This document shows positions 15,242-19,804 of a stretch of DNA of 64,000 bases, piece by piece; position 1 is the first letter of the stretch; each line of letters opens with the position of its first letter. The notes under the pieces are model-generated. The model ran no database searches, was not told the DNA's origin, and saw only the letters and a list, made by a program, of their open reading frames with translations. A program made the translations under genes and the position numbers. Origin of the DNA: a phage; the NCBI GenBank assembly GCA_014685065.1, contig GCA_014685065.1_4092.2; one strand, given 5' to 3'.

Positions 15242-15304
15242 ATTTCCTCCTTTATTCATTATACTATATTTAATCAAAAAGAAAAGCCAGTACTCTGTAC
15301 TGGC
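15242..15304 (-). promoter_or_regulatory. array intergenic cassette: terminator GCCAGTAC-N4-GTACTGGC then TATAGTATAATGAATAAAGGAGG promoter/SD block
   Basis: read on reverse complement; same cassette at 5 other junctions. Confidence 0.5.
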
Positions 15305-15311
15305 CTATATT

Positions 15312-16049
15312 TTATACTGAATTGTTAGGATAATATCTCCCATTTCCCCATATTATTCGCACAGCACCACCACCAGCAGCCGTATAAGAAGAATTATCCC
15401 ATATACTACCACCACCACCATACATCTTACCAGCACCACCACTACCAGCACCACCATTATATGAACCACCGTAGCTACCACCAATACCATTAGCACCTTG
15501 AACAATGATACCAGTACCACCACCCGTACCAATGAACGAGGTATTATAGAATGTACCACCGCCCCCGCCGCCGCCAGCACCATTTTCACCAGTGATTGCA
15601 TCTCCGTTACCACCTTTACCTGTGTAGCCACCAGCACCACCACCAATGACTGCACCACCACTTACACCAGTATTGCCACCATTACCACCACCATCATTAA
15701 TAGCGTTAGCAGCTTTTCCACCTAGTCCACCAACCGTATATGCACCAGTGAAGCTAACACATAGTTTTTCAGTTCCACGATATAAACCGTTTTCAACTGG
15801 TGTAGTAGTGTTGGTATGCGTAAGAGAAACACTTAAGTACTCACCACTAGTAACCGGAATATTATTACGCCACGATAAGCCGCCGCCAGCACCACGTTGA
15901 CCACCCGGCGAAATAACACATACTGATATTTCGGTAACGCCAGCAGGAACTGTAAATTGTGTTGTTCCTATTGTCGTGATTAATTGTTCACCATGTGGCT
16001 TATATTCAATTTCATTCCCGTACTTAATCATTCTTCCAAAAGGTAACAT
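15312..16049 (-). CDS. glycine-rich protein carrying the same MLPFGRM leader
   Basis: ORF track; long GGxGG tracts. Confidence 0.7.
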   Translation of the reverse strand: MLPFGRMIKYGNEIEYKPHGEQLITTIGTTQFTVPAGVTEISVCVISPGGQRGAGGGLSWRNNIPVTSGEYLSVSLTHTNTTTPVENGLYRGTEKLCVSFTGAYTVGGLGGKAANAINDGGGNGGNTGVSGGAVIGGGAGGYTGKGGNGDAITGENGAGGGGGGGTFYNTSFIGTGGGTGIIVQGANGIGGSYGGSYNGGAGSGGAGKMYGGGGSIWDNSSYTAAGGGAVRIIWGNGRYYPNNSV

Positions 16050-16113
16050 AATTCCCTCCTTTATTCATTATAATATATTTAATACAAAAAGAAAAGCCAG
16101 TACTGAGTACTGG
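16050..16113 (-). promoter_or_regulatory. array intergenic terminator/promoter cassette
   Basis: GCCAGTACTCAGTACTGGC hairpin + TATAATGAATAAAGGAGG. Confidence 0.5.
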
Positions 16114-16121
16114 CTATTATA

Positions 16122-17380: not shown

Positions 17381-18529
17381 TCATTGTATAAATGACATAT
17401 CAACTTCTGTATAACTAAGAATGTTTTGTCCAGCAATTCCCCCCATTACTACCATAGCATACCCACAATAATATAATTGCTCAGTGTCCGTAAGTATAAG
17501 TGAACCAGATGGAGTGCGTACCAAATTACACGAACTATTAAACGAAGTATACGAAGGAGTATATGAGTACTGATTAATATTATTACCAACACCTAATTGA
17601 CCAAATCCATTCGACCCAGATGCGTATAGAACTTCATCACCTTTAGCTATATGTGATGCCATGTTACTAACACACGTATATAGAGTATAAACTCCTGAAC
17701 TCAATAATGTCGGAGTTTTGTATTGTATATCGGTAGATGAAGAAGTACCACCTGTGCCAAATTCGTTCCCGTATTGTGCACCGAACTGTTTACCACAAGC
17801 GTACAAATTATTATCCGATTTAATAAAAAATGTACTCTGATAACTTACATCAAAATCTATAACATCTGAAGCAATCATCGTCACCCCAGTAATAGAAGTT
17901 TGATTACCTGTACCTAACTGATAGTAATAGTTAAAACCACAACCCCATAAAGTATTATCTTCTTTTAGGTATATGTTACCAACTGCCTTTTTAACCGAAG
18001 TTATAGTATCTACCCTTTTGAATGTGTTAAAAGAATTAATGTTTGTACCATCACCAAATGATGATAGGTTCGAGTTATTGTTAACTCCACAACAATACAA
18101 CGTACCATCGTTTGTTATCAAATTCACCTTCATATCATTAAAACTACTCATGTATTTTATATCAGAAACATTAATACCACCTGATGTTATCCACGTAGTA
18201 CAGTCCGTCCACAAAGTTTTTGTATCAGTTACACCAGTGAATGCCTTCGTGTTACCAGTGATAAAAACTTTTCCAGTACCTTTCTCTTCATACAATTGAC
18301 AACTACTACTGTTATCTTCCAATAGAACTCGTTTAACATTCTCTGCACAAAGAATAAATTTACTCGATGCTACACCTGTTCCAGTACCCCAATTCGTCGC
18401 AGAAGATGCATACAACTTATTAGTATAAGTATCATGAAGATACATAGAATCACTTGAATATATTTTAAAACGCCTATCCTTACCAGGGGCAATATTCCCA
18501 TAATTCATCATTCTTGCAAAAGGTAACAT
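17381..18529 (-). CDS. RCC1-like beta-propeller protein with MLPFARM leader
   Basis: ORF track; motif SGSNGFGQLGVGNN. Confidence 0.75.
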   Translation of the reverse strand: MLPFARMMNYGNIAPGKDRRFKIYSSDSMYLHDTYTNKLYASSATNWGTGTGVASSKFILCAENVKRVLLEDNSSSCQLYEEKGTGKVFITGNTKAFTGVTDTKTLWTDCTTWITSGGINVSDIKYMSSFNDMKVNLITNDGTLYCCGVNNNSNLSSFGDGTNINSFNTFKRVDTITSVKKAVGNIYLKEDNTLWGCGFNYYYQLGTGNQTSITGVTMIASDVIDFDVSYQSTFFIKSDNNLYACGKQFGAQYGNEFGTGGTSSSTDIQYKTPTLLSSGVYTLYTCVSNMASHIAKGDEVLYASGSNGFGQLGVGNNINQYSYTPSYTSFNSSCNLVRTPSGSLILTDTEQLYYCGYAMVVMGGIAGQNILSYTEVDMSFIQ

Positions 18530-18594
18530 ATTTCCCTCCTTTATTCATTATACTATATTTAATACAAATAAGAAAGCCAGTACAGTGTACTGGC
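18530..18594 (-). promoter_or_regulatory. array intergenic terminator/promoter cassette
   Basis: hairpin 18576-18594 + conserved block. Confidence 0.5.
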
Positions 18595-18600
18595 ATTATA

Positions 18601-19740
18601 TTATTTCCACGGTAGAAGTGAATCAGGAACCCTTGTTGGTACAGTAGTTGAAGACATTCCAGTAAGATTGGGTACACCACATGTGTATAAATTATTATAT
18701 TCGTCAACTAACATCGTATAAGAATAGCTCTTACAAAAACTACTAAGATTACTACCTTCTAATGCAGTAAGATCCATTTCAGCGAATGATGTTATATACA
18801 TATCAGTTGTACCAATACCACATTGACCATTTGAATTAAGGCCACATGAAAATAACTTATTATTATTATTAATTATACAGGATGGTCCGGTAAGGTTTGT
18901 CCCAAGCTCACCCACCAACTCCACTTCTCCTTGGAATGATAAATTTGGAATTAATGTACTCATTGGGGCTACTGACCTATTTCCTGTACCTGCTTGTCCA
19001 TAGTCGTTAATAGATGCAACTTTAACATTACCATCATTAAGAAATATATAAGAAGTTTCATTTGTATTGACTGCTTTAATTGCATTACTAATCGAAGTAT
19101 CTTGTGTAAATGTGAGCAAGTTTTGTGTCGTCGTTCCTGATACAAACGTTCTACCTGCATACCAATATGAACCATCATTTAGTACTAATCCAGTACTATA
19201 TATTGCACAACCAGCACTGATAACATTTTCTATTGTACTATAGGTGAATCGTGAAACGCTTGAAGTTGATCCATTCCCAAAAACACCACCAGTACCAGCA
19301 CCACAGTAGAACCACTTTCCATTTTTTAAAAATACACGCATACACGAAGATATCACAACACTATCAATATCATCTGCACTGACACCGAAATCAGTAAAGT
19401 TCTGTGTTATATCAACCCAAACGCCGTTAGTGTTTGAAGATAGTATTGGAATAACAGTACGTCTACCAGTGTACCAAATAGTACCATCTTTCTTTATAGC
19501 AATTGTTCCTTGTACCCCACCCCAATATCGTGTAACATTTGAGTTGACAAGAGTCCATTCAGTTGAAGAGTCCAATGAACCATTACCACTTTGTCCATAT
19601 GCTGAAGAACCAAACCAATATAGATTGCCATTTGTGTGTAAATAAAATTTGGCATCAGCAGAACATTGTAACCTGTTTTTAGGTAGAATCAGTTCAGGTG
19701 CGATATTCCCGTACTTAACCATTCTTGCAAAAGGTAACAT
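18601..19740 (-). CDS. RCC1-like beta-propeller protein with MLPFARM leader
   Basis: ATG at 19738-19740; tracked ORF extends artefactually through the intergenic cassette. Confidence 0.75.
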   Translation of the reverse strand: MLPFARMVKYGNIAPELILPKNRLQCSADAKFYLHTNGNLYWFGSSAYGQSGNGSLDSSTEWTLVNSNVTRYWGGVQGTIAIKKDGTIWYTGRRTVIPILSSNTNGVWVDITQNFTDFGVSADDIDSVVISSCMRVFLKNGKWFYCGAGTGGVFGNGSTSSVSRFTYSTIENVISAGCAIYSTGLVLNDGSYWYAGRTFVSGTTTQNLLTFTQDTSISNAIKAVNTNETSYIFLNDGNVKVASINDYGQAGTGNRSVAPMSTLIPNLSFQGEVELVGELGTNLTGPSCIINNNNKLFSCGLNSNGQCGIGTTDMYITSFAEMDLTALEGSNLSSFCKSYSYTMLVDEYNNLYTCGVPNLTGMSSTTVPTRVPDSLLPWK

Positions 19741-19804
19741 ATTCCCTCCTTTATTTGTTATACTATATTTAATACAAATAAGAAAGCCAGTACAGTGTAC
19801 TGGC
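19741..19804 (-). promoter_or_regulatory. array intergenic terminator/promoter cassette
   Basis: hairpin 19786-19804 + conserved block. Confidence 0.5.

What the first reader, a model, noticed from the sequence alone, without database searches (positions are those of the whole stretch)
15242..19804. Stereotyped terminator-promoter-SD cassette between array genes, with the -10-like element abutting the SD
Five inter-paralog junctions and the array's 5' end carry, on the minus strand, GCCAGTAC-N4-GTACTGGC + T-rich tail followed by TTATTTGTATTAAATATAGTATAATGAATAAAGGAGG-ATG. The TATAAT-like element sits about 10 nt from the SD, so the leader would be extremely short, and there is no good -35. This looks like a non-sigma70 (late or phage-factor-dependent) promoter. 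It is not the T4 late TATAAATA box.
Basis: partly seen in the sequence, partly recalled or inferred. Interest (0 to 1): 0.45.

Follow-up and report, generated by a model that had tools for sequence, protein, structure and literature searches.

The report
Terminator plus late-promoter junction cassette
The repeated sequence between these jumbo-phage virion-protein genes is a transcription terminator followed by a T4-style late promoter and ribosome-binding site, an ordinary regulatory unit that also marks every point where related phages have swapped or reordered whole genes in this array.

Summary
The window comes from an Asteriusvirus (121Q/PBECO4/G17-like) jumbo coliphage. Ten minus-strand paralogs (10545-22131), mostly RCC1-like, all start MLPF.RM..Y.N.

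The repeat is real. There are five hairpins GCCAGTAC-N3-GTACTGGC (N3, not N4), each followed by a U-rich tail, an A/T-rich block and AAGGAGG-ATG. The array's 5' end has the promoter-like part only.

It is invariant in the 38 cassettes read out from five other phages. It lies 35-53 nt upstream of capsid, baseplate and fibre genes in phAPEC6. It matches the late-promoter motif predicted for phage CBB. It is strongly avoided elsewhere in the window (4 and 19 copies against about 55-65 expected per strand). A gp55-like late sigma factor is encoded in the genus.

So this is most likely a T4-type late promoter. The TATA of the TATAAT falls on the predicted start site and the leader is about 20-22 nt, not extremely short.

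The roughly 117-nt unit evolves in concert within a genome. It coincides with nearly all homology breakpoints against G17, PBECO4, phAPEC6 and 121Q. It therefore behaves like a late-promoter analogue of the T4-type PeSL cassettes. No transcript data exist.

The parts
19741..19804 (-). Cassette 1, between gene B (19811-20920) and gene Y (18601-19740). Hairpin 19804-19786; U-tract; TAAATA 19771-19766; TATAAC 19762-19757; GGAGG 19749-19745; ATG 19740.
18530..18594 (-). Cassette 2, between gene Y and gene X (17381-18529). Hairpin 18594-18576; U-tract UUUCUUAUUUG; TAAATA 18561-18556; TATAAT 18552-18547; GGAGG 18539-18535; ATG 18529. Predicted late start site about 18551-18549.
17310..17374 (-). Cassette 3, between gene X and gene C (16122-17309). 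Hairpin 17374-17356; TAAATA 17341-17336; TATAAT 17332-17327; GGAGG 17319-17315; ATG 17309.
16050..16115 (-). Cassette 4, between gene C and the Gly-rich gene D (15312-16049). Hairpin 16115-16095 (9 bp); TAAATA 16081-16076; TATAAT 16072-16067; GGAGG 16059-16055; ATG 16049.
15242..15306 (-). Cassette 5, between gene D and gene E (14066-15241). Hairpin 15306-15284 (10 bp); TAAATA 15272-15267; TATAAT 15263-15258; GGAGG 15250-15246; ATG 15241.
22132..22176 (-). Array 5'-end copy upstream of gene A (20929-22131). T-run; GGTAAATA (TAAATA 22163-22158); TGATATAAC; AAAGGAGG. No proper hairpin. It lies back-to-back with a perfect sigma-70 promoter on the + strand (22181-22209).
12905..12928 (-). Compressed promoter-like copy TAAATATAATATAAAGGAGGGAAT upstream of gene G (ATG 12904). 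It is embedded in the last codons of gene F and has no hairpin.
10517..10539 (-). Terminator hairpin plus U-tract closing the array after gene H (10545-11714). Same arm family (GCCAGTGC..GTACTGGC), no promoter after it.
10545..22131 (-). Array of ten paralogs A, B, Y, X, C, D, E, F, G, H. All begin MLPF[GAS]RM..Y[GA]N. Apart from Gly-rich D they are RCC1-like (Pfam hits for A, X and G; the others align as paralogs). Bodies are only 17-35% identical to each other. The repeated unit runs from about -72 to about +45 of each cassette-preceded ATG.

Best explanation
Each cassette is a compact transcription-unit boundary for late (virion-protein) genes.

How it works (proposed):
1. A Rho-independent terminator ends the upstream paralog's mRNA. 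It is an 8-10 bp hairpin with arms CCAGTAC/GTACTGG, followed by a U-rich tract.
2. About 14 nt later comes a T4-type late promoter whose only required element is the -10-like core TAAATA. It would be read by host RNA polymerase carrying the phage's gp55-like late sigma factor.
3. Transcription would start about 5-7 nt downstream, on an A inside the 'TATAAT'. The TATA of that hexamer is therefore the start-site box of the late promoter, not a sigma-70 -10.
4. The resulting leader is about 20-22 nt and carries a strong SD (AAGGAGG, 4-5 nt before ATG).
5. The array is thus expressed as several short late transcripts: A-B, Y, X, C, D and E-F-G-H. The cassette-less junctions are translationally coupled.

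Second property: the same roughly 117-nt unit (hairpin through about codon 15) is the only long stretch of near-identity between otherwise 17-35% identical paralogs. It serves as the substrate for homologous recombination. That homogenises the cassettes within a genome and shuffles, inserts or deletes whole gene modules between related phages.

Status of each step:
- Shown: the sequence anatomy, its conservation, compensatory changes in the stem, the genome-wide behaviour of TAAATA, and the coincidence of breakpoints with cassettes.
- Inferred: actual termination, actual initiation, which sigma factor is used, and the recombination mechanism.
For: Identity and context:
- The window is an Asteriusvirus.
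- Array proteins are virion components by mass spectrometry in phAPEC6: gp003, 005, 006, 007, 009, 010 (PMC7247149). One array protein in fENko-Kae01 was also identified by LC-MS/MS.

Terminator:
- Fold energies are -12.4 to -15.5 kcal/mol, z -4.3 to -5.7.
- Across 34 distinct hairpins from six phages every predicted pair that was counted is a standard pair. Double (compensatory) changes occur at three positions: G-C to A-T six times, C-G to A-T once, C-G to T-A once.
- There are 17 G.U wobbles. These pair only in the sense-strand RNA.
- Loop length varies from 3 to 8 nt.
- The same hairpins are annotated as terminators in G17 and Munch.

Late promoter:
- TAAATAYNNTATNA occurs 7 times in the window, all on the minus strand, 24-32 nt before array ATGs. 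0.75 are expected by chance.
- TAAATA is invariant in all 17 aligned window and EJP2 cassettes. It is also invariant in the G17, phAPEC6, PBECO4, 121Q and Munch cassettes.
- In phAPEC6, TAAATA (often the full TATAAATA) lies 35-53 nt before the ATG of the major head protein, gp226, gp228, gp231, gp238, gp245, gp250, gp253, tail fibre gp256 and endonuclease VII. In all, 18 sites were found for 39 genes.
- Those 18 non-array sites show a conserved A (82%), T (76%), A (65%) exactly 6-8 nt after TAAATA. This is the T4-type +1 position.
- TAAATA is the rarest of the 15 hexamers with the same composition: 4 and 19 copies against about 52-76 and 62 expected. On the early-gene coding strand there is 1 copy against 33-51 expected.
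- The published CBB 'promoter 3', found upstream of structural genes, includes CTAAATATGATATA, CTAAATATAATATA and GTAAATACATAATA (PMC5259590 supplement).
- phAPEC6 gp237c matches PHROG 'late sigma transcription factor' at 8e-18 and 'sigma factor for late transcription' at 3e-154.

Recombination:
- The repeat is sharply bounded, from about -72 to +45.
- Cassette identity is 89% within the window, 82% within EJP2 and 51% between them. Gene X's cassette is 92% identical to its own genome's copies but 55% identical to the cassette of its 82%-identical ortholog EJ507.
- Almost all internal homology breakpoints against G17, phAPEC6, PBECO4 and 121Q fall inside the junction units. Examples are 19695/19808, 18486/18602, 17259/17385, 16014 and 15197/15304. 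Gene order and gene content differ between these phages.
Against: - There are no transcript 5' or 3' ends for any Asteriusvirus in the literature I could search.
- The window cassettes read TTAAATA or GGTAAATA, only 6 of 8 matches to TATAAATA. A T before TAAATA is not seen among the 35 CBB sites.
- The TAAATA-to-ATG distance (31-32 nt) is shorter than at the other late genes (35-53 nt).
- TATAAT is itself well conserved across genera (Munch, EJP2). It lies 1 nt closer to TAAATA than the start-site ATA of the non-array late promoters, so a separate function is not excluded.
- The gp55-like sigma was verified only in a relative, by a PHROG profile. It had no Pfam hit and no PDB sequence hit, and it is not in this window.
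- CBB is reported to lack gp33 and gp45 homologs, so the T4 activation mechanism may not apply.
- Breakpoints at gene boundaries could partly reflect selection for intact genes.
- Repeat-induced assembly errors in some deposited genomes cannot be excluded.
Confidence: 0.75

Rival explanations
1. TATAAT would be a -10-only promoter used by host sigma-70 holoenzyme or by the phage's RpoD-like sigma. The upstream T/A-rich tract could act as an UP element. Transcripts would start 6-8 nt downstream and have a leader of about 10 nt that begins at the SD.
For: - TATAAT is a perfect -10 hexamer in 5 of 7 window copies. It is conserved in G17, phAPEC6, PBECO4, 121Q, EJP2 and most Munch cassettes.
- The array 5'-end copy in PBECO4 reads TGATATAAT, an extended -10 like the CBB middle promoters.
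- The phage group encodes an RpoD-like sigma.
Against: - There is no -35 and no TG extension in the five internal cassettes (and direct reading).
- The critical -7 T is a C in 2 of 7 window copies and in further G17 and 121Q copies.
- One Munch cassette keeps TAAATATAT but has no TATAAT.
- This phage's own early promoters carry full consensus -35 boxes. Its relatives' middle promoters carry TGAAACG-N13-TGnTATAAT. The cassette fits neither class.
- The gene products are virion proteins.
- This model does not explain the invariance of TAAATA or its avoidance across the genome.
Confidence: 0.12
2. There are no internal promoters. The array would be transcribed from its 5' end as one long late RNA. 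The hairpins would act as attenuators, processing sites or 3'-end stabilisers. The conserved A/T-rich block, SD and first codons would be conserved only as a translation-initiation region and/or through gene conversion.
For: - Concerted evolution shows that recombination alone can keep the copies alike.
- Three junctions work without any cassette, by translational coupling.
- The U-tracts are interrupted by C or A (UUUCUUAUUUG), so termination may be partial.
- The leader and N-terminal region has no significant RNA structure, as expected for an open initiation region.
Against: - The bases conserved between genera are precisely TAAATA-N3-TATA, not the SD spacing or the rest of the block. The distance from there to the SD changes by 4-8 nt in EJP2 and Munch.
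- The same TAAATA motif stands before unrelated late genes, often directly after a terminator as here, for example phAPEC6 gp244 and gp245.
- TAAATA is avoided everywhere else.
Confidence: 0.1
3. The inverted repeat CCAGTAC..GTACTGG would be primarily a double-stranded DNA binding site for a phage regulator that controls the adjacent promoter, rather than an RNA terminator.
For: - AGTACT and CAGTACTG are strongly over-represented in the window: 248 against 47-98 expected, and 52 against 3-7 expected.
- They occupy fixed positions inside the stereotyped early promoters, for example CCAGTACTGGCATAAT.
- The AGTAC core of the arms is conserved across genera while the outer pairs vary.
Against: - Half-site spacing (loop length) varies from 3 to 8 nt.
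- The changes that occur preserve pairing, including G.U wobbles that are valid only in sense-strand RNA.
- The repeat is always followed by a U-tract and always lies 6-10 nt after a stop codon.
- The array's last copy has no promoter downstream.
Confidence: 0.05

Closest known systems
T4-type late promoters (TATAAATA, read by gp55-RNA polymerase) and the late-promoter motif predicted for the Rak2-like jumbo phages GAP32 and CBB ([A/C/G]TAAATA plus an A/T-rich downstream region; PMC5259590)
   Same: - A single -10-like element containing TAAATA, with no -35.
- It sits upstream of virion genes.
- There is a conserved A at the T4-type +1 distance.
- A gp55-like sigma is encoded in the genus.
- The motif is avoided elsewhere in the genome.
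- There are near-identical 14-mers in the CBB list, for example CTAAATATGATATA.
   Different: - The first two positions differ: TT, AT or GG instead of TA.
- The array copies carry an unusually fixed downstream TAGTATAAT.
- The distance to the ATG is shorter (31-32 nt).
- No start-site mapping exists.
- Co-activators of the gp33/gp45 type are reported missing in CBB.
PeSLs, the promoter-early stem-loop cassettes of T4-type phages (Arbiol et al. 2010, PMC2839356; Comeau et al. 2014, PMC4122927)
   Same: - A short, repeated, composite terminator-plus-promoter unit running from the stop codon to the SD and start codon.
- Many near-identical copies per genome.
- The copies lie at the borders of insertions, deletions, replacements and reorderings between close relatives.
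- The proposed mode of action is homologous recombination between copies.
   Different: - The promoter here is of the late type, not a sigma-70 early promoter.
- The stem-loop always lies upstream of the promoter and never overlaps it.
- The unit extends about 45 nt into a conserved N-terminal coding segment.
- It flanks a tandem array of virion-protein paralogs in a Rak2-like jumbo phage, not ORFans in hyperplastic regions.
- Mini-circles were not tested.
Morons, the autonomous promoter-gene-terminator units of lambdoid phages (author's own knowledge)
   Same: Each array gene is bracketed by its own promoter and terminator and can be gained or lost as a unit.
   Different: These are late virion genes of a lytic phage in a tandem paralog array. 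They are not lysogen-expressed accessory genes inserted between essential genes.

Membership tests
Rho-independent (intrinsic) terminator | Stable G+C-containing stem-loop in the transcript | tested here: met
   The stems are 8-10 bp and fold at -12.4 to -15.5 kcal/mol, z -4.3 to -5.7. None of 200 shuffles folds as well for any window copy.
Rho-independent (intrinsic) terminator | U-rich tract immediately 3' of the stem, on the coding strand, shortly after a stop codon | tested here: met
   The tract UUUCUUAUUU or UUUUCUUUUU directly follows every stem. The hairpins start 6-10 nt after the upstream stop codon.
Rho-independent (intrinsic) terminator | Pairing rather than sequence is conserved (compensatory changes) | tested here: met
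   Across 34 distinct hairpins from six phages there are double changes at three stem positions and 17 G.U wobbles. Every predicted pair counted is a standard pair. Loops are 3-8 nt.
Rho-independent (intrinsic) terminator | Transcript 3' ends in the U-tract in vivo or in vitro | not testable with these tools
   No RNA data are available.
T4-type late promoter (gp55-dependent) | TATAAATA box at about -10 | tested here: inconclusive
   Six of eight positions match. TAAATA is invariant, but the preceding two bases are TT, AT or GG. The full TATAAATA is present before the phAPEC6 major head gene, gp226, gp232, gp234 and gp238.
T4-type late promoter (gp55-dependent) | No -35 element required or present | tested here: met
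   The 14 nt between the stem and TAAATA are just the terminator's U-tract. No hexamer matches TTGACA at more than 3 of 6 positions (and direct reading).
T4-type late promoter (gp55-dependent) | The same motif precedes other late (virion) genes of the phage at a fixed distance, with a purine start about 6 nt downstream | tested here: met
   There are 18 sites for 39 genes in two phAPEC6 segments, mostly 35-53 nt before the ATG. An A (82%) lies 6 nt after TAAATA. This was tested in a relative from the same genus, not in the window's own genome.
T4-type late promoter (gp55-dependent) | Phage encodes a gp55-like late sigma factor | tested here: met
   phAPEC6 gp237c hits phrog_234 'late sigma transcription factor' at 8.4e-18 and phrog_12791 at 3.4e-154. 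CBB_244 is reported as gp55-like. There is no Pfam or PDB sequence hit, and the gene lies outside this window.
T4-type late promoter (gp55-dependent) | Late, replication-coupled initiation at the predicted +1 | not testable with these tools
   No transcriptome or 5'-end mapping for Asteriusvirus was found.
Sigma-70 type promoter (-35/-10 or extended -10) | TTGACA-like -35 element 16-18 nt upstream of the -10 | tested here: not met
   The best candidates, TTCTTA (16-nt spacer) and TTTCTT (17-nt), match TTGACA at only 3/6 and 2/6 positions. The scan reported no promoter at the cassette TATAAT. The early promoters of the same window have consensus -35 boxes.
Sigma-70 type promoter (-35/-10 or extended -10) | -10 hexamer with A at -11 and T at -7; TG at -15/-14 if there is no -35 | tested here: inconclusive
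   TATAAT is present in 5 of 7 window copies and TATAAC in 2 of 7. There is no TG in the five internal copies (TAGTATAAT, TATTATAAT). Only the 5'-end copy has TGATATAAC.
PeSL (promoter-early stem-loop) cassette | Contains a strong sigma-70-like early promoter | tested here: not met
   The promoter is of the late (TAAATA) type.
PeSL (promoter-early stem-loop) cassette | Repeated intergenic unit combining a terminator stem-loop, a promoter and an SD | tested here: met
   There are five full copies in the window and 8-16 matches to the 121-nt cassette query per Asteriusvirus genome.
PeSL (promoter-early stem-loop) cassette | Lies at the borders of indels, replacements and rearrangements between close relatives | tested here: met
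   Homology blocks against G17, phAPEC6, PBECO4 and 121Q begin and end inside the junction units. Genes are reordered, added or lost as whole modules.
PeSL (promoter-early stem-loop) cassette | Recombination between copies yields mini-circles or new junctions | not testable with these tools
   This needs PCR or long-read data from infected cells.

The most novel reading that the evidence does not exclude
The cassette would be a late-promoter counterpart of the PeSL 'mobile regulatory cassettes'. It is a roughly 117-nt unit (terminator, late promoter, SD and the first ~15 codons of a conserved N-terminal, possibly virion-docking, peptide) kept uniform within each genome by recombination. It would let Asteriusviruses and their relatives swap, reorder, gain and lose whole virion-surface RCC1-like genes as plug-in modules. 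That would make it a dedicated diversification system for the phage's surface proteins. No such system has been described for late genes or for jumbo phages in the literature searched.
Probability: 0.5. Interest if true: 0.5.

Novelty: new variant of a known kind. Interest (0 to 1): 0.3.

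Why it matters
As a regulatory element this is ordinary: a terminator followed by a T4-style late promoter. The terminators are already annotated in G17 and Munch, and the late motif was already predicted for CBB and GAP32. Three things are useful.

1. It gives a concrete, testable late-promoter definition for Asteriusvirus: TAAATA-N5-A(+1). The definition is supported by strong genome-wide avoidance of the hexamer.
2. It corrects the idea that these genes have near-leaderless mRNAs.
3. It shows that the composite cassette marks every module boundary in a fast-evolving array of virion proteins. 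This extends the PeSL concept of recombination at regulatory cassettes from early ORFan regions of T4-like phages to late structural genes of jumbo phages.

The third point may matter for host-range evolution. It may also help in engineering these phages, because the cassette offers natural homology arms for inserting genes that would be expressed late.

Tried and rejected
- Rfam scan of 9000-24000 at E<=1: only two sub-threshold chance hits, none at the cassettes.
- Folding the predicted leader plus the first 15 codons: no structure beyond shuffles (z +0.6 to -0.9). A possible SD:CCUUUU pairing is not conserved in EJP2 or Munch, so it was dropped.
- Sigma-70 scan: no hit at the cassette TATAAT; overall 57 promoter-like sites were found against 68.5 expected.
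- T4 middle (MotA-box) reading: the stem's 3' arm plus U-tract (CTGGCTTTC) resembles the MotA box only loosely and the spacing is wrong (14 nt). No MotA/AsiA evidence was found. Rejected by inspection.
- CBB-type middle promoter (TGAAACG-N13-TGnTATAAT): the upstream 7-mer is absent from the cassettes.
- phmmer of the late sigma against PDB, and Pfam: no hits. Only the PHROG profiles identify it.
- Literature searches for Asteriusvirus transcript mapping, or for a prior description of this cassette, found nothing. I searched the Sharanji, UE-S1, fEgEco12, phAPEC6, 121Q capsid and PA5oct papers.
- Technical: loci L003, L004 and L007 never reached the Python sandbox. EJP2 was analysed through alignments A1 and A2, fENko-Kae01 was not analysed beyond its annotation, and the phAPEC6 head region was fetched again as L009.

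Full report
**What the window is.** Megablast of 10400-22300 finds only Asteriusvirus jumbo coliphages and close Salmonella relatives: G17 and Sharanji at 99.5%, SP27, PBECO4, 121Q and phAPEC6. Every match is in pieces and none covers 80% of the query. The minus strand between 10545 and 22131 carries ten paralogous genes, labelled here A, B, Y, X, C, D, E, F, G and H. Each begins MLPF[GAS]RM..Y[GA]N. Pfam finds RCC1-like domains in A, X and G. D is a Gly-rich protein with no Pfam hit that shares only the N-terminus. Outside the first 20 alignment columns the paralogs are 17-35% identical. In phAPEC6 the homologous proteins (gp003, 005, 006, 007, 009, 010) were detected in virions by mass spectrometry (PMC7247149). 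They are therefore late structural genes.

**Checking the observation.** The pattern GCCAGTAC-N3-GTACTGGC occurs five times with no mismatch, at 15286, 16096, 17356, 18576 and 19786. It occurs once with one mismatch, at 10519, which is the 3' end of the array. None is expected in shuffles. TATAGTATAATGAATAAAGGAGG occurs five times on the minus strand with 0-2 mismatches, again none expected. The loop is 3 nt, not 4. The array's 5' end has a diverged promoter/SD part (GGTAAATATGATATAACAAATAAAGGAGG) but no real hairpin. There is a seventh, compressed copy inside the last codons of gene F, upstream of ATG 12904. Three junctions have no cassette: stop and SD overlap ahead of B and F, and a remnant of a disrupted gene precedes H. 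The repeat is sharply bounded. Pairwise identity among the five full copies is 0.78-1.00 from about -72 to +28, about 0.6 out to +48, and 0.1-0.4 outside that range.

**The hairpin is a terminator.** Each hairpin folds at -12.4 to -15.5 kcal/mol with z of -4.3 to -5.7. Each starts 6-10 nt after the upstream stop codon and is followed by UUUCUUAUUU or UUUUCUUUUU. I compared 34 distinct hairpins from the window, G17, phAPEC6, PBECO4, EJP2 and Salmonella phage Munch. Every predicted pair that was counted is a standard pair. Three stem positions show double changes: G-C to A-T six times, C-G to A-T once, C-G to T-A once. Examples from Munch are GGCTAGTAC..GTACTAGCC and TGACAGTAC..GTACTGTCA. Seventeen G.U wobbles are compatible only with the sense-strand RNA. 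Loop length ranges from 3 to 8 nt. This pattern argues for an RNA hairpin and against a fixed-spacing protein site. The depositors of G17 and Munch had already annotated these hairpins as terminators.

**Which element is the promoter?** I aligned the six window copies with eleven cassettes from EJP2, a divergent Asteriusvirus. The invariant bases are TAAATA and, 3 nt downstream, TAT-A. The distance from there to the SD grows by 4-8 nt in EJP2, and three EJP2 copies read TATGAT instead of TATAAT. Munch, which is outside the genus, keeps AATTAAATATA[GA]TATAAT in four cassettes. A fifth keeps TAAATATAT but has no TATAAT. In the window two of seven copies read TATAAC, which loses the T at -7 that sigma-70 needs. 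No cassette has a -35, and the five internal ones have no TG extension. By contrast, the plus-strand early region of the same window (mostly 22-46 kb) contains about 17 perfect TTGACA-N16/17-TATAAT promoters. The cassette is therefore not of the early class. It also lacks the TGAAACG-N13-TGnTATAAT architecture of the predicted middle promoters of CBB.

**TAAATA behaves as the late-promoter core of this phage group.** Four lines of evidence support this.
- In phAPEC6, TAAATA, often as the full T4 box TATAAATA, lies mostly 35-53 nt before the ATG of many late genes. These include the major head protein, gp226, gp228, gp231, gp232, gp238, gp245, gp247, gp250, gp253, tail-fibre gp256 and endonuclease VII. 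That is 18 sites for 39 genes in two segments.
- Aligned on TAAATA, these non-array sites show A (82%), T (76%), A (65%) at 6-8 nt after the core. This is the +1 distance of T4 late promoters (my knowledge of T4: TATAAATA at -13 to -6).
- In the window, TAAATA is by far the rarest of the 15 hexamers with its composition. There are 4 copies on the plus strand and 19 on the minus strand, against about 52-76 and 62 expected. Only 1 copy, against 33-51 expected, lies on the coding strand of the early region. Seven of the 19 minus-strand copies are the array sites.
- The CBB paper predicted a late promoter, also reported for GAP32, upstream of structural genes. Its 35 listed sites include CTAAATATGATATA, CTAAATATAATATA and GTAAATACATAATA (PMC5259590). 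These are almost the same as the cassette's TTAAATATAGTATA.

A gp55-like late sigma exists in the genus. phAPEC6 gp237c matches PHROG 'late sigma transcription factor' at 8e-18, and CBB_244 is reported as gp55-like.

**Consequence for the leader.** That gives a 20-22 nt leader with AAGGAGG 4-5 nt before the ATG. The 'extremely short leader' follows only if TATAAT is taken as the -10. The TATA of that hexamer corresponds, with a 1-nt shift, to the (T/C)ATA start-site box of the other late promoters. The leader and first codons show no structure beyond shuffles. A terminator directly followed by TAAATA is also seen before phAPEC6 gp244 and gp245, so the architecture is general for late genes in this phage group.

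**Evolutionary behaviour.** Between the window and EJP2 two clear orthologs exist, A~EJ504 at 76% and X~EJ507 at 82% amino-acid identity, and they sit in a different order. The cassettes nevertheless cluster by genome: 89% identity within the window, 82% within EJP2 and 51% between them. X's cassette is 92% identical to its genome-mates but 55% identical to its ortholog's cassette. This is concerted evolution.

Homology blocks against close relatives also end inside the junction units.
- Against G17 the blocks are 22142-19695 (99.2%), 18602-17259 (99.3%, at a different place in G17) and 17385-10000 (99.7%). Gene Y is only 73.7% identical, and G17 has an extra gene.
- Against PBECO4 there is a single block, 22228-16014 (97.5%), ending 35 nt into gene D, and nothing beyond it.
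- Against 121Q the blocks are 20930-18486 (99.3%) and 17385-15197 (94.9%). X is relocated and only 75.8% identical.
- Against phAPEC6 there are eight blocks of 67-99% identity in a different order, and F is absent.

Adjacent blocks overlap by 113-126 nt, which is the size of the repeat. The window's array is thus a mosaic of G17-like, PBECO4-like and 121Q-like modules joined at cassettes.

**Comparison with known systems.** As a regulatory device this is a Rho-independent terminator followed by a T4-type late promoter and an SD, all known kinds. As an evolutionary device it closely parallels the PeSLs of T4-type phages. Those are repeated composite terminator/early-promoter units that run from stop codon to SD, border indels and replacements, and recombine with each other (PMC2839356; PMC4122927). 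It fails the defining PeSL feature of a sigma-70 early promoter, so I do not file it as a PeSL. It is better described as a late-promoter variant that works like one. Unlike PeSLs, it extends into a conserved N-terminal coding segment. I found no earlier description of this cassette in the papers on Sharanji, UE-S1, fEgEco12, phAPEC6, 121Q or CBB.

**Limits.** No transcript ends are available. The sigma assignment, the start site, the termination efficiency and the recombination mechanism are all inferences. The genome-wide late-motif evidence comes from a congeneric phage and from 64 kb of this one. The conservation of the full TATAAT across genera is only partly explained by the start-site box. 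An overlapping weak sigma-70-type promoter cannot be excluded.

**Verdict.** The regulatory function is ordinary. The cassette-delimited module shuffling is a modestly new variant of a known phenomenon.

Noticed in passing
whole window; e.g. 9388-9410, 31297-31322, 37044-37072: The palindrome AGTACT occurs 248 times against 47-98 expected, and CAGTACTG 52 times against 3-7 expected. It forms the arms of the array terminators and of other hairpins. It also sits at fixed positions in the stereotyped early promoters, for example TTGACAATAGTTTTAAGTACTGTATAAT, AAAAAGTACTTGCAA... and CCAGTACTGGCATAAT. It could be a regulator binding site; this is unexplained.
   Followed up: partly
window + strand 3010-3042, 4292-4324, 5706-5738 (variants near 35366, 39405, 42709, 44970): There is a terminator-embedded early promoter, GGGTTGACTTCGGTCAGCCCTTTTTGCTATAAT. 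The -35 box TTGACT lies in the 5' arm of a GC-rich hairpin, the T-run forms the spacer, and TATAAT follows. This is a true PeSL-like unit. The same hairpin is listed among the CBB terminators (Torf515/518/520).
   Followed up: partly
window + strand, mostly 22181-46000: There is a dense series of consensus sigma-70 promoters on the + strand (about 17 perfect TTGACA-N16/17-TATAAT matches, all but one within this stretch), with A-rich upstream tracts, in front of small ORFs. This is the early-gene region. TAAATA occurs only once on this coding strand against 33-51 expected.
   Followed up: partly
window 22132-22209: The divergent control region has the array's first late-type promoter on the minus strand (TAAATA 22163-22158). 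It is back-to-back with a perfect 12/12 sigma-70 promoter on the plus strand (22181-22209). The T-run of one serves as the A-tract upstream of the other.
   Followed up: no
window 11715-12904 (minus strand): Gene G is only 269 aa. It is followed by a 380-nt gap holding short ORFs that look like the C-terminal end of an RCC1 paralog (11725-11853: ...GKLYYTGMSPVGTVVGTWTLTEYQLPQI). This looks like a disrupted or frameshifted paralog. The same arrangement is seen in G17, phAPEC6 and 121Q.
   Followed up: partly
window 15312-16049 (minus strand): Gene D encodes a Gly-rich 245-aa protein (no Pfam hit; phrog_4474, function unknown). It is not RCC1-like, but it carries the same N-terminal MLPFGRMIKYGN and the same cassette. 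The shared N-terminus may therefore be a common virion-docking peptide attached to different distal domains.
   Followed up: no
window 10000-22230 compared with L001, L005, L008, L010: The window's array is a mosaic. A-B and C-H are 99% G17-like. B-Y is 99.3% 121Q-like. A-C is collinear with PBECO4 at 97.5%. Gene order differs in each relative. No deposited genome covers 80% or more of the 11.9-kb query.
   Followed up: yes
L006 5958-6088 (phAPEC6, upstream of the late sigma gene gp237c): The late-sigma gene is preceded by TGGGACA-N13-TGCTATAAT. This is the same architecture as the predicted CBB middle promoters (TGAAACG-N13-TGnTATAAT) and fits a middle-to-late cascade.
   Followed up: no
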